From NCBI GenBank assembly GCA_000004985.1, contig GG739526.1: 1,151 bases of DNA. One strand, 5' to 3'. Origin of the DNA: Naegleria gruberi. Its lineage: Eukaryota. The translations under genes were made by a program, and so were the position numbers. This document shows positions 1 to 1,151 of this stretch, piece by piece. The notes beneath the pieces were generated by a model, which was not told the DNA's origin, searched no databases, and worked only from the letters and a program-made list of their open reading frames with translations. Numbering within the stretch: position 1 is the first letter of the stretch; every line of letters starts with the position of its first letter.

Positions 1-7
1 CAGTATC

Positions 8-220
8 ATGTATTCAGCCAGAGAAATATTTGGTCAATCGAGAAAAATAGCAAACTTTCAAAAATTCACCAAGTTCAACAAGAGTTTTACAATACATCGT
101 AGTAGTTTCGGATCATCATCATTTTCTTCCAATTTTAATATAAATTTTGATGAAATAACTGTTGAAAAAGATGATGATAATCCATCTGCTCTCTATGTTG
201 GATTATTCGAATATTATTAA
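8..220 (+). CDS. hypothetical protein (marginal ORF, possibly a fragment of a disrupted gene)
   Basis: ATG at 8-10 and stop TAA at 218-220. The frame is also open back to the window edge (2-7 = agt atc), so the ORF may be 5'-partial. The product is F/S/N/K-rich (RSSFGSSSFSSNFNINF), which is the composition expected from translating AT-rich non-coding DNA. An open frame of about 70 codons at this base composition is expected by chance roughly once per kb, so this one is weak on its own. No SD-like motif can be judged because the window edge is too close. Confidence 0.3.
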   Translation: MYSAREIFGQSRKIANFQKFTKFNKSFTIHRSSFGSSSFSSNFNINFDEITVEKDDDNPSALYVGLFEYY

Positions 221-374
221 CGAAAATATCAATGATTTACTCATGTCGGCATCAGAGGGTGGATTTAAACAAGCTCATTTATTGCTTGCCACGATTTCCT
301 ATTTGGAAGATTCCGACAATTCGAATAATAGCGAGACTAATAGAAATTTTAGAGATTATCTGACAAACAATTAG
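162..374 (+). CDS. hypothetical protein (marginal ORF, +1 frame relative to ORF 8-220, overlapping it by 59 nt)
   Basis: The frame is open from the TAA at 156-158 to the TAG at 372-374. The track start at 162 is TTG. In-frame ATGs lie at 171, 174, 195 and 243, and none has an upstream GGAGG-like motif. The product is N/I/L/S-rich, again AT-driven composition. Its length of 72 codons stop-to-stop is only marginally significant. The exact end-to-end tiling with its neighbours is the main argument that it is not random. Confidence 0.3.
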   Translation: MKKMMIIHLLSMLDYSNIINENINDLLMSASEGGFKQAHLLLATISYLEDSDNSNNSETNRNFRDYLTNN

Positions 375-658
375 TGGAAATGTACACGAATGGAGAGGGA
401 ACAGAAGCAAGTTATTCGAAAGCAATGAATCAAAAATTGTGGTACTATTTCACCAAATGTCTCTATGGATTTGGAGTTGTTACTACTCTCTCTGCATACC
501 TATTAATTCAATTATTGAGTGCAGTATTAATTGTCATTGCTCTTTTCTTTTTTTCATTACATGTTTCGGCAGTTGATGCATTCGAAATTGATTTGGATTT
601 TTCTTTTGAGAATGATGATACGCCAAATAAGACTTTTTCATTCAAATTGTCCAAGTAG
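374..658 (+). CDS. small predicted membrane protein with two adjacent hydrophobic helices (or one long one) and an acidic C-terminal tail
   Basis: The frame is open 353-658, which is 102 codons stop-to-stop and unlikely by chance at this composition. Candidate starts are GTG at 374 and ATG at 380-382 (gaaATGt). The stop is TAG at 656-658. The translation contains LYGFGVVTTLSAYLLIQLLSAVLIVIALFFFSLHVSAV, about 40 consecutive hydrophobic residues. It is followed by DAFEIDLDFSFENDD, which is acidic. Codons are GGA x4 for Gly, TGG for Trp and TGT for Cys. I recognise no homologue. Confidence 0.55.
   Translation: MEMYTNGEGTEASYSKAMNQKLWYYFTKCLYGFGVVTTLSAYLLIQLLSAVLIVIALFFFSLHVSAVDAFEIDLDFSFENDDTPNKTFSFKLSK
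548..554 (+). repeat. T7 homopolymer inside the coding region of ORF 374-658 (codons ttc ttt ttt t, encoding FFF within the hydrophobic segment)
   Basis: Direct count: positions 548-554 are all T, flanked by C at 547 and C at 555. Confidence 0.9.
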
Positions 659-666
659 ATCATCAT

Positions 667-768: not shown

Positions 769-1110
769 CTATTCATCTTGTGCAATAAGCGAAATATCAC
801 AAAGCTTCGAATTGTTGGCTATTCTCCAAAGAACTGGTTTCCATTCTCTTCCACTTTCTCTCAAACATTTAGAAATGAATGGAAACCTAGATTTCACTCC
901 ACTGAAAATCAAATCCTTAATCTCATTAACCTCCTCCTTATTTAGCAAATTAACAATGTGATACTCTGTTTCGTGTTCCTCAAAAAATTCACTCATCATT
1001 GAATTAATGACCATTCTTTCGTTTTCATTTGAGATTCGTTTCAATTCTTCCCTCATTTCATGATTCTTTAAATTTTCATAAACAACTCCTCGTTTCAGTT
1101 TTGATTGCAA
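769..1110 (-). CDS. hypothetical protein with a Glu/Lys-rich, probably helical, N-terminal half and a C-terminal half containing W/C/P residues; no family recognised
   Basis: On the minus strand the frame is open from the TAG at 1141-1143 to the TAG at 769-771. That is 124 codons and the most significant ORF in the window. The track start at 1108-1110 is TTG, not ATG. The first ATG is codon 19 (+ strand 1054-1056), which would give a product of about 95 aa beginning MREELKRISNENERMV. The composition is E-rich (about 17 Glu) and not purely AT-driven. Codons are GGA x3, CCA x2 and TGG x2. There is no SD-like motif before either candidate start. Confidence 0.65.
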   Translation of the reverse strand: MQSKLKRGVVYENLKNHEMREELKRISNENERMVINSMMSEFFEEHETEYHIVNLLNKEEVNEIKDLIFSGVKSRFPFISKCLRESGREWKPVLWRIANNSKLCDISLIAQDE

Positions 1111-1151
1111 AACATCTGGTTTGGTGAATAATACTATTTTCTACAATTGGA

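What the first reader, a model, noticed from the sequence alone, without database searches (positions are those of the whole stretch)
8..658. Three end-to-end + strand ORFs in frames 2 -> 3 -> 2, with a +1 shift and a compensating -1/+2 shift
The ORFs 8-220, 162-374 and 374-658 cover 650 nt with no gap, and each begins in the next frame before the previous one stops. Two shifts that restore the original frame suggest one ancestral coding sequence rather than three independent genes. A real gene, if there is one, could exist here in several ways. (a) Two indels have made it a pseudogene. (b) Assembly or basecalling produced indels; an A5 run at 165-169 and (CT)3 at 189-194 lie in the first overlap. 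(c) The shifts are programmed recoding. Both shifts can be placed exactly at the terminating stops (TAT TAA C at 215-221, AAT TAG T at 369-375). That placement is also what any frameshifted pseudogene looks like. (d) Only the third ORF is real and the first two are chance frames in AT-rich upstream DNA. Their F/S/N/I-rich composition supports (d).
Basis: seen in the sequence. Interest (0 to 1): 0.55.

Follow-up and report, generated by a model that had tools for sequence, protein, structure and literature searches.

The report
Broken orphan ORFs beside Naegleria G-alpha gene
The three end-to-end reading frames are really there and are longer than chance easily gives. They lie in amoeba (Naegleria) DNA next to a G-protein gene, match no known protein, and are most simply an unannotated species-specific coding stretch interrupted by ordinary one-base indels, or else chance, and not programmed recoding.

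Summary
Observation confirmed. ORFs 8-220, 162-374 and 374-658 sit in frames 2, 3 and 2 and tile 654 nt.

The window is eukaryotic. The minus-strand ORF 772-1140 is 120/122 aa identical to the C-terminus of a Naegleria gruberi G-alpha-like protein (XP_002675255.1). The three ORFs therefore lie tail-to-tail downstream of that gene.

An exhaustive HMMER search of 1.84 billion representative proteins found that homolog and its paralogs. It found nothing credible for ORF1, ORF2 or ORF3, so no subject spans the frames.

The tiling is still unusual: P is about 0.001 in shuffles of positions 1-768, including shuffles that keep local composition. ORF2 and ORF3 have codon usage like real genes (likelihood ratios about 11 and 22). 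ORF1 does not (about 1).

Splicing cannot explain the second junction, because there is no GT at 260-373. No productive slippery site exists.

The G-alpha gene itself carries a 1-nt deletion 11-17 nt from the contig end.

Best reading (0.45): a lineage-specific coding sequence, at least ORF2+ORF3, broken by simple indels that are either real or sequencing errors. Chance ORFs in AT-rich intergenic DNA remain a strong rival (0.33). Recoding is about 0.02. Interest is low.

The parts
2..217 (+). ORF1 open stretch, frame 2 (ATG at 8; stop 218-220). It runs off the left end of the window. The product is low in complexity and rich in F, S, N and K.
   Evidence: Codon LLR is 0.02-0.03, with P = 0.12 against chance ORFs and a likelihood ratio of about 1. 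The amino-acid model gives P = 0.55. No homolog was found.
159..371 (+). ORF2 open stretch, frame 3 (TTG at 162; ATG ATG at 171-176; stop 372-374).
   Evidence: Codon LLR is 0.11-0.12, with P = 0.012-0.023 and a likelihood ratio of about 11. The amino-acid model gives P = 0.03. No homolog was found.
353..658 (+). ORF3 open stretch, frame 2, with its stop at 656-658 (GTG at 374, ATG at 380 and 425).
   Evidence: Codon LLR is 0.14, with P <= 0.004 and a likelihood ratio of about 22. The amino-acid model gives P = 0.045. No homolog was found.
159..217 (+). First overlap, where any frame 2 to frame 3 change must lie. It would need a 1-nt insertion or a 2-nt deletion relative to a continuous frame. 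It contains the A5 run at 165-169.
   Evidence: A5 is the only homopolymer of 3 or more bases in the overlap. Deleting one A would give ...DEITVEKMMIIHLLSML... (my own reading of the sequence).
353..371 (+). Second overlap, where the frame 3 to frame 2 change must lie. It would need a 1-nt deletion relative to a continuous frame. It contains the A3 run at 365-367.
   Evidence: The overlap holds no slippery heptamer. The + strand has no GT at 260-373, so a GT-AG intron cannot join ORF2 to ORF3 while keeping ORF2.
461..589 (+). Hydrophobic segment of ORF3 (residues about 30-72, LYGFGVVTTLSAYLLIQLLSAVLIVIALFFFSLHVSAVDAF), a putative membrane span or spans. The strand is T-rich here.
   Evidence: Kyte-Doolittle 19-residue means reach 2.7. 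It is the only part of the merged model with pLDDT above 70. AT skew is about -0.3 over 451-650.
769..1140 (-). C-terminal 123 codons plus the stop (771-769) of a divergent G-protein alpha-like gene, ortholog or allele of N. gruberi NAEGRDRAFT_50404. It is convergent with ORF3, with 110 nt between the two stops.
   Evidence: E = 1.6e-70. (120/122 identical, same C-terminal end). (P0001 matches Pfam G-alpha at 68.2 bits against a cutoff of 48.8). (source names).
1134..1142 (-). One-base frame break in the G-alpha coding sequence, in the minus-strand stretch GAAAATAG.
   Evidence: Reverse-complement frame 1 reads SNCRK* and frame 3 reads KIVLFTKPD. Inserting a single T at about 1138 gives SNCRIIVLFTKPD, which matches P0001 ...NCRIIVLFTKPD.
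110..183 (.). Imperfect inverted repeat (hairpin) made of (TCA)3 and (GAT)3 tracts. It ends inside the first overlap.
   Evidence: 20-nt arms, 85% complementary. (-21.8 and -23.0 kcal/mol, z = -3.2 and -3.7).

Best explanation
The window is nuclear DNA of Naegleria gruberi or a very close relative.

The minus strand carries the 3' end of a G-alpha-like gene. The + strand region 2-658 converges on it. This region most likely holds a lineage-specific (orphan), unannotated protein-coding sequence or its recent relic. It would comprise at least ORF2+ORF3 (about 160 aa from ATG 171) and possibly ORF1 as well (about 216 aa from ATG 8). The product would end in a hydrophobic, membrane-type segment followed by an acidic tail.

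The reading frame is interrupted by plain single-base indels. One is a 1-nt loss within 353-371. Possibly there is also a 1-nt gain within 159-217. Both intervals contain A-runs.

Shown: the ORF geometry, its rarity under shuffling, gene-like codon composition in ORF2 and ORF3, and a 1-nt deletion in the neighbouring verifiable gene of the same contig.

Inferred: that the frames were once continuous, and that the breaks are indels. Whether they are true mutations (a pseudogene or a defective haplotype) or sequencing or assembly errors cannot be decided from this window. No ribosomal recoding or splicing is involved.
For: - Tiling of 650 nt or more by three open stretches has P = 0.0007-0.0013 in shuffles of 1-768, including block shuffles.
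- ORF2+ORF3 alone has P = 0.001-0.005.
- Stop trinucleotides are depleted on the + strand only: 41 against 50.7 +/- 4.3, while the minus strand has 52.
- A codon model was trained on 8 genes of a related gene-dense eukaryotic contig (L001). It scores ORF2 at 0.11-0.12 and ORF3 at 0.14, inside the range of real 80-codon gene chunks (mean 0.11, sd 0.09). These values exceed every out-of-frame or intergenic chance ORF of 60 codons or more in L001 (maximum 0.09). Likelihood ratios are about 11 and 22.
- The true G-alpha exon, used as a control, scores 0.16.
- The same contig has a 1-nt deletion in the G-alpha coding sequence, so indel lesions or errors do occur in it.
- The 110-nt spacing between convergent stops fits a genome that is 57.8% coding (PMC8296547, Table 2).
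Against: - No protein among 1.84 billion representatives matches ORF1, ORF2 or ORF3 at E <= 0.001. The one nominal hit was P0008, a 6,976-aa protein with 22% identity. It proved spurious: BLASTP with composition adjustment gave E of about 10. The library contains N. gruberi NEG-M proteins, including the 98%-identical neighbour. An intact ortholog of 160 aa or more in NEG-M would probably have been annotated and therefore found.
- ORF1 is compositionally indistinguishable from chance ORFs.
- A second model, based on amino-acid composition, gives only P = 0.03 and P = 0.045 for ORF2 and ORF3.
- Two short antisense ORFs in the same region (666-511 and 192-61) also score high, so the codon score is not very specific here.
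- The codon model is small (about 2,900 codons) and was trained on another organism.
- The G-alpha indel lies within 17 nt of the contig end. That position is typical of an assembly tip and may say nothing about internal positions.
- N. gruberi intergenic regions average about 930 nt, so 768 nt without a gene is ordinary (my arithmetic).
Confidence: 0.45

Rival explanations
1. These are chance open frames in AT-rich (31% GC) intergenic or 3'-flanking DNA downstream of the G-alpha gene. No protein is or ever was encoded on the + strand at 2-658.
For: - No credible homolog exists anywhere, including the annotated proteome of a 98%-identical relative.
- No Pfam or PHROG family matches.
- Open stretches of 71 codons or more occur in 66% of shuffles.
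- Chance ORFs of 76 and 95 codons occur in the intergenic regions of the related contig L001.
- ORF1 looks like a chance ORF.
- The ORF3 region is T-rich and A-poor, which lowers stop frequency and gives hydrophobic products in any frame.
- The mean intergenic length in N. gruberi is about 930 nt.
- The finding was picked out after the fact, from a scan of many windows.
Against: - Tiling has P of about 0.001 even in shuffles that keep local composition.
- ORF2 and ORF3 codon scores lie in the top 0.4-2% of chance ORFs and in the middle of the real-gene distribution.
- Stop depletion is specific to the + strand.
Confidence: 0.33
2. The ORFs are separate small genes. ORF3 alone would be a 77-94-aa membrane protein, or ORF2 and ORF3 would be independent small ORFs. 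The upstream frames would then be chance.
For: - ORF3 has the longest open stretch (303 nt; P of about 0.03 alone).
- ORF3 has the best codon score.
- ORF3 has in-frame ATGs at 380 and 425.
- ORF3 has a hydrophobic core flanked by K on the N-terminal side and by D/E on the C-terminal side.
- Small ORFs are commonly left out of eukaryotic annotations (general knowledge).
Against: - ORF2 scores nearly as well as ORF3 and abuts it with no gap. The two-segment tiling (P = 0.001-0.005) is much rarer than ORF3 alone (P of about 0.03).
- No homolog was found.
- Overlapping, back-to-back genes of 70-94 aa are not a usual arrangement for a eukaryotic nuclear genome (general knowledge).
Confidence: 0.12
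3. It is one spliced gene. The frame changes would reflect spliceosomal introns that remove the stops.
For: - The organism is a eukaryote with 1.7 exons per gene and a mean intron length of 203 bp.
- GT at 197 could pair in phase with AG at 257 (61 nt) or with AG at 352 (156 nt).
Against: - The + strand has no GT at 260-373. No GT-AG intron can therefore join ORF2 to ORF3 without deleting nearly all of ORF2, which is the best-scoring part.
- The candidate donors are poor (GTTGGA, GTTGAA). The one intron seen in the related contig is GTAAGT...TTTAG.
- An ORF1-to-ORF3 splice would discard ORF2, which scores as coding.
Confidence: 0.04
4. It is programmed ribosomal frameshifting: +1 at TAT TAA C (215-221), then -1 or +2 at AAT TAG T (369-375), giving one product.
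For: - Both shifts can be placed at the terminating stops.
- A hairpin spans 110-183.
Against: - Neither overlap contains an X XXY YYZ heptamer.
- The only heptamer in ORF2's frame (A AAT TTT, 344-350) would deliver the ribosome straight onto the frame-2 TAG at 350-352.
- TAT is not a known +1 shift-prone P-site codon, and no recoding of this kind is known in Heterolobosea (my knowledge; not tested here).
- The hairpin lies upstream of the first stop, not downstream of it.
Confidence: 0.02

Closest known systems
Frameshifted pseudogene, or coding sequence split by an indel error, in a draft assembly
   Same: Consecutive overlapping open frames on one strand. Frame changes of +1 and -1 lie in intervals that contain A-runs. 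A neighbouring, verifiable gene in the same contig has a 1-nt deletion.
   Different: The usual proof is a homolog that aligns across the frames. That proof is absent here because nothing matches. Only ORF2 and ORF3 show coding-like composition.
Taxonomically restricted (orphan) genes of Naegleria
   Same: No homolog outside the lineage, an AT-rich low-complexity sequence and a small predicted membrane segment. The Naegleria literature reports hundreds of species-restricted genes of unknown function (PMC8296547).
   Different: Annotated orphans at least match their own entry in the N. gruberi proteome. This one matches none, and its frame is not continuous.
Programmed ribosomal frameshifting (viral -1 PRF; antizyme, Ty or Euplotes-type +1)
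   Same: Overlapping frames, with the shift placeable at a stop codon.
   Different: There is no productive slippery heptamer, no known shift-prone codon and no downstream stimulator at the right place. The organism is not known for recoding.
Heterolobosean divergent G-alpha-like subfamily (N. gruberi NAEGRDRAFT_50404, 66226 and 73162) - the neighbouring gene, not the finding
   Same: The window's minus-strand ORF is 98% identical to the C-terminus of NAEGRDRAFT_50404. It shares the family's TKPD, VINS, YHIVN and FIS(P/K)C motifs.
   Different: Canonical G-alpha has NKxD and TCAT motifs and a short C-terminus. This subfamily replaces both motifs and adds a tail of about 40 aa. P0001 also lacks the P-loop Lys and the switch-II Gln.

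Membership tests
Frameshifted (disrupted) homolog of a known gene | One subject protein aligns to two or more of the frames in colinear order | tested here: not met
   Exhaustive phmmer of ORF1+ORF2+ORF3 (concatenated, together with the G-alpha ORF as an internal positive control) against 1.84 billion representatives. Only the G-alpha part has credible hits. The one hit in the ORF2 region (P0008) is spurious. Pfam, PHROGs and PDB searches give nothing significant.
Frameshifted (disrupted) homolog of a known gene | An orthologous locus in a related genome has an intact single frame | not testable with these tools
   Look-ups for two N. gruberi proteins, P0001 and P0005, found nothing on record, so no N. 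gruberi genomic DNA could be reached. Pattern and peptide scans of the viral, metagenome and prokaryote collections found no related locus.
Protein-coding sequence (intrinsic signal) | Codon and amino-acid composition like real genes of the lineage and unlike chance ORFs of the same length | tested here: inconclusive
   ORF2 and ORF3 meet the feature (likelihood ratios 11 and 22; P = 0.03 and 0.045 with the second model). ORF1 does not (likelihood ratio 1; P = 0.12 and 0.55). Two antisense ORFs also score high.
-1 programmed ribosomal frameshift site | Slippery heptamer X XXY YYZ in the upstream frame inside the overlap, opening into the downstream frame | tested here: not met
   There is no heptamer in 353-371. 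A AAT TTT at 344-350 is in ORF2's frame, but the -1 frame then reads TAG at 350-352.
+1 programmed frameshift (antizyme, Ty1, Euplotes type) | Shift-prone P-site codon followed by a stop or a slowly decoded codon, in an organism or gene family known to use it | tested here: inconclusive
   A stop is present (TAT TAA C). However, TAT is not one of the known shift-prone codons (CUU, UCC, AAA; from my knowledge), and no homologs exist with which to test conservation of the site.
Spliceosomal intron | GT...AG boundaries in the right phase that join the flanking ORFs while keeping them | tested here: not met
   Junction 2: no GT on the + strand at 260-373. Junction 1: only weak donors, GTTGGA and GTTGAA. 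The reference intron in L001 is GTAAGT...TTTAG.
Heterotrimeric G-protein alpha subunit (Pfam PF00503) - minus-strand neighbour | Match to the G-alpha profile above Pfam's gathering score | tested here: met
   The window fragment alone scores 15.3 bits, below the 48.8 cutoff. It is 120/122 identical to residues 238-359 of P0001, and full-length P0001 scores 68.2 bits.
Heterotrimeric G-protein alpha subunit (Pfam PF00503) - minus-strand neighbour | Canonical guanine-nucleotide motifs (P-loop GxGxSGKS, DxxGQ, NKxD, TCAT) | tested here: not met
   In alignment A1, P0001 has GSGAST (no Lys), GGSR (no Gln), TKPD and VNLL. The window shows TKPD and VNLL. It is therefore a divergent, possibly non-catalytic member.

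The most novel reading that the evidence does not exclude
The three frames are decoded into one roughly 216-aa membrane protein by two programmed ribosomal frameshifts: +1 at TAT-TAA and -1/+2 at AAT-TAG. This would be the first recoding of this kind in a heterolobosean amoeba.
Probability: 0.02. Interest if true: 0.75.

Novelty: new member of a known kind. Interest (0 to 1): 0.14.

Why it matters
If the best reading is right, this is one more unannotated, species-restricted ORF in Naegleria, either decaying or mis-sequenced. That is useful only as a small correction to annotation or assembly quality.

The practical lessons are larger than the biology:
- The window is eukaryotic, so bacterial ORF logic does not apply directly.
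- A neighbouring verifiable gene gives an internal check on indels in the contig.
- Consecutive overlapping ORFs that return to the original frame are not in themselves evidence of a single gene, because the return happens half the time by chance.

Nothing here bears on an open question, unless recoding were shown, and the sequence does not support recoding.

Tried and rejected
1. Bacterial or phage origin. There was no phage DNA match, and PHROG matches were all non-significant (best E = 0.032). Sigma-70-like promoter sites occurred at the rate seen in shuffles, and no terminator-like sites were found. The origin question was settled by the Naegleria identification.

2. Rfam. Only sub-threshold miRNA and snoRNA noise appeared, caused by the 110-183 hairpin.

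3. Cytochrome P450 lead for the minus strand. Weak PDB hits to CYP51 had E of about 1. The lead was rejected once the exhaustive search showed the ORF to be G-alpha.

4. Sel1/TPR-like repeat impression for ORF2/ORF3 ('LVEMYTNGEG...'). Neither Pfam nor PDB supports it, even on frame-merged sequences.

5. The word-index homology search gave three negatives. One search missed a 98%-identical protein that is in the collection. These negatives therefore carry little weight. This includes the only test made of minus-strand and other-frame ORFs in 1-768.

6. Exact-product look-ups for ORF3, the G-alpha ORF, P0001 and P0005 found nothing on record.

7. DNA and peptide scans of the viral, metagenome and prokaryote-genome collections found nothing.

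8. AlphaFold2 on the merged ORFs gave mean pLDDT 50.6, with only the hydrophobic helix confident. The true G-alpha fragment as a control gave 38.7. The test has no discriminating power in single-sequence mode.

9. Ciliate code (TAA/TAG read as Gln). I considered it because both terminating stops are TAA/TAG. I rejected it because Naegleria uses the standard code (my knowledge), and because the G-alpha ORF ends at TAG exactly where the annotated ortholog ends.

10. Internal repeats. Only short chance-level repeats and a 9-nt x 3 tandem repeat at 57-82 were found.
Full report
**1. Observation**

The window (1,151 nt, 31% GC) contains the three + strand ORFs exactly as described:
- 8-220 in frame 2
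- 162-374 in frame 3
- 374-658 in frame 2

Measured stop to stop, the open stretches are 2-217, 159-371 and 353-655. The intervals in which a frame change could lie are therefore 159-217 and 353-371. The A5 run (165-169), (CT)3 (189-194) and the two stop contexts are correct.

**2. Where the window comes from**

Pfam gave only a weak G-alpha hint for the longest ORF of the window, on the minus strand at 772-1140 (E = 0.012).

I ran an exhaustive phmmer search of 1.84 billion representative proteins. The query was a concatenation of ORF1, ORF2, ORF3 and this minus-strand ORF. For the minus-strand part it returned P0001 (E = 1.6e-70) and a set of paralogs.

P0001 is Naegleria gruberi XP_002675255.1 / NAEGRDRAFT_50404. 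It is 120/122 identical to the window ORF and ends at the same residue. Its full length passes Pfam's G-alpha threshold (68.2 bits against 48.8).

The window is therefore nuclear DNA of N. gruberi or a very close strain or allele. Positions 769-1140 on the minus strand are the 3' end of a divergent G-alpha-like gene. Lineage-specific G-alpha diversification in N. gruberi is on record (PMC3971589). The finding lies tail-to-tail downstream of this gene, with 110 nt between the two stop codons.

N. gruberi NEG-M has these features (PMC8296547, Table 2):
- 33% GC and 57.8% coding
- 15,708 genes in 41 Mb, with a mean gene length of 1,677 bp
- 1.7 exons per gene and a mean intron length of 203 bp

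By my arithmetic this gives a mean intergenic distance of about 930 bp. A 768-nt stretch without an annotated gene is therefore ordinary.

**3. Homology of the three ORFs**

The same exhaustive search gave no credible hit to query positions 1-244, which hold ORF1, ORF2 and ORF3.
- The one nominal hit was P0008 (6,976 aa, 22% identity). It vanishes under composition-adjusted BLASTP, with E of about 10.
- Two G-alpha hits merely ran a little way across my artificial junction.

Pfam, PHROGs and PDB searches were also negative, even with frame-merged sequences.

The library contains N. gruberi NEG-M proteins, including the neighbour (P0001) and two of its paralogs. So no annotated protein of a 98%-identical relative corresponds to these ORFs.

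One caveat applies. The faster word-index search missed P0001 outright, so I give its negatives no weight. As a result, the minus-strand and frame-1 ORFs of 1-768 have not been tested rigorously.

**4. Is the tiling more than chance?**

Single open stretches of this size are common. One of 71 codons or more appears in 66% of dinucleotide shuffles. Chance ORFs of 76 and 95 codons occur in the intergenic regions of a related contig.

The gap-free chain is not common:
- Three segments covering 650 nt or more occur in 1.3% of whole-window shuffles.
- Within the 768 nt not occupied by G-alpha, the figure is 0.07-0.13%. This holds whether the shuffle is global or done in blocks of 48-192 nt that preserve local composition.
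- ORF2+ORF3 alone (497 nt) gives P = 0.001-0.005.
- ORF3 alone gives P of about 0.03.
- Stop trinucleotides are depleted on the + strand (41 against 50.7 +/- 4.3), while the minus strand has 52.

The 'compensating' return to frame 2 is uninformative. It occurs in 49% of the best chance tilings.

**5. Coding potential**

I trained a codon model on the eight called genes of L001. L001 is a 10.9-kb, gene-dense, 34% GC eukaryotic contig from a Logan assembly, and it carries a paralog of the same G-alpha subfamily.

| Sequence | Mean log2 ratio per codon | P against chance ORFs of 60+ codons | Likelihood ratio, coding:chance |
|---|---|---|---|
| G-alpha exon of the window (control) | 0.16 | - | - |
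| L001 genes, leave-one-out | 0.02-0.27 | - | - |
| ORF1 | 0.02-0.03 | 0.12 | 1.0 |
| ORF2 | 0.11-0.12 | 0.012-0.023 | 11 |
| ORF3 | 0.14 | <= 0.004 | 22 |

The likelihood ratios compare each ORF with 61 real 80-codon chunks. All non-gene ORFs of 60 codons or more in L001 score 0.09 or less.

A second model used the amino-acid composition of the heterolobosean G-alpha proteins. It is weaker, giving P = 0.55, 0.03 and 0.045 for ORF1, ORF2 and ORF3.

Two further points limit the specificity of these scores:
- Two short antisense ORFs (666-511 and 192-61) also score high.
- The training set is small and comes from a different organism.

The net result is moderate evidence that ORF2 and ORF3 are, or recently were, coding, and none for ORF1.

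AlphaFold2 in single-sequence mode cannot help. The merged ORFs gave pLDDT 50.6, with only the hydrophobic helix confident. The genuine G-alpha fragment gave 38.7.

**6. What could join the frames?**

*Splicing.* The + strand has no GT anywhere in 260-373. ORF2 therefore cannot be joined to ORF3 by a GT-AG intron without discarding ORF2. The donors available for the first junction are poor (GTTGGA, GTTGAA). The one intron visible in L001 is GTAAGT...TTTAG.

*Recoding.* Neither overlap contains an X XXY YYZ heptamer. The one heptamer in ORF2's frame (A AAT TTT, 344-350) would put the ribosome straight onto the frame-2 TAG at 350-352. TAT-TAA is not a known +1 site (my knowledge).

*Simple indels.* A 1-nt gain within 159-217 and a 1-nt loss within 353-371 would restore one frame. 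Each interval holds one A-run, A5 at 165-169 and A3 at 365-367.

The contig carries an independent example of such a lesion. At the right end, the G-alpha frame changes from SNCRK* to KIVLFTKPD. Inserting a single T at about 1138 reproduces the NCRIIVLFTKPD of the N. gruberi protein. This break lies within 17 nt of the contig end. That position is where assembly tips and heterozygous indels accumulate, so it shows that indels occur in this contig but does not measure the internal error rate.

**7. Verdict**

I put 0.45 on a lineage-specific coding sequence interrupted by ordinary indels. It would comprise at least ORF2+ORF3 and perhaps ORF1, and it would end in a hydrophobic segment (residues about 30-72 of ORF3). 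I cannot tell whether the indels are real or artefactual.

The remaining weight is distributed as follows:
- 0.33 on pure chance in AT-rich intergenic DNA
- 0.12 on separate small ORFs (mainly ORF3)
- 0.04 on splicing
- 0.02 on recoding

The main argument against the leading reading is that no annotated N. gruberi protein matches. The main argument against chance is the combination of a roughly 10^-3 tiling probability with gene-like composition in two of the three frames.

One BLAST against the N. gruberi genome, plus RNA-seq mapping, would settle the matter. On every reading that the evidence leaves likely, the finding is ordinary.

Noticed in passing
window 1134-1142 (minus strand): The G-alpha coding sequence has a 1-nt deletion relative to the N. 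gruberi ortholog. The frames read SNCRK* and then KIVLFTKPD. Inserting one T restores NCRIIVLFTKPD. The break lies within 17 nt of the contig end, so it may be an assembly tip, a heterozygous indel or a defective allele.
   Followed up: yes
window 769-1140 (minus strand); proteins P0001-P0012: The neighbouring gene belongs to a divergent heterolobosean G-alpha-like subfamily. TKPD replaces NKxD, and YHIVN replaces TCAT. There are conserved VINS and FISPC motifs in a C-terminal extension of about 40 aa. The N. gruberi protein also lacks the P-loop Lys and the switch-II Gln, so it may not hydrolyse or even bind GTP.
   Followed up: partly
window 110-183: An imperfect hairpin with 20-nt arms (85% complementary) and a 34-nt loop (z = -3.2 and -3.7). 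It is formed by opposed (TCA)3 and (GAT)3 tracts, and it caused the sub-threshold miRNA hits in Rfam. It ends inside the first ORF overlap. No function is evident.
   Followed up: partly
window 344-352: A canonical -1 slippery heptamer, A AAT TTT, lies in ORF2's frame. The -1 frame then reads TAG at 350-352, so a slip here would terminate translation rather than enter ORF3.
   Followed up: yes
window 508-666 (minus strand): A 52-aa ORF antisense to ORF3, with an ATG start, has the highest codon score in the window (0.24). Another antisense ORF at 61-192 scores 0.14. These may be antisense echoes of + strand coding, or a sign that the codon score is not specific in this region. Neither could be searched exhaustively.
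   Followed up: partly
versus 20 and 25 (tool behaviour): The word-index protein search returned nothing for the G-alpha ORF, although a 98%-identical protein is in its collection. Its negatives for eukaryotic queries should not be trusted.
   Followed up: yes
L001 1303-2785 (minus strand): In the Logan contig used for training (SRR15442450), two adjacent 'genes' with Cation_efflux hits are one gene. They are split by an intron of about 72 nt (GTAAGT...TTTAG). The contig is eukaryotic DNA that was annotated with prokaryote-style gene calls.
   Followed up: partly
window 57-82: A weak tandem repeat, TTCAACAAG x 3 (77% matches), lies inside ORF1 and adds to its low-complexity character.
   Followed up: no
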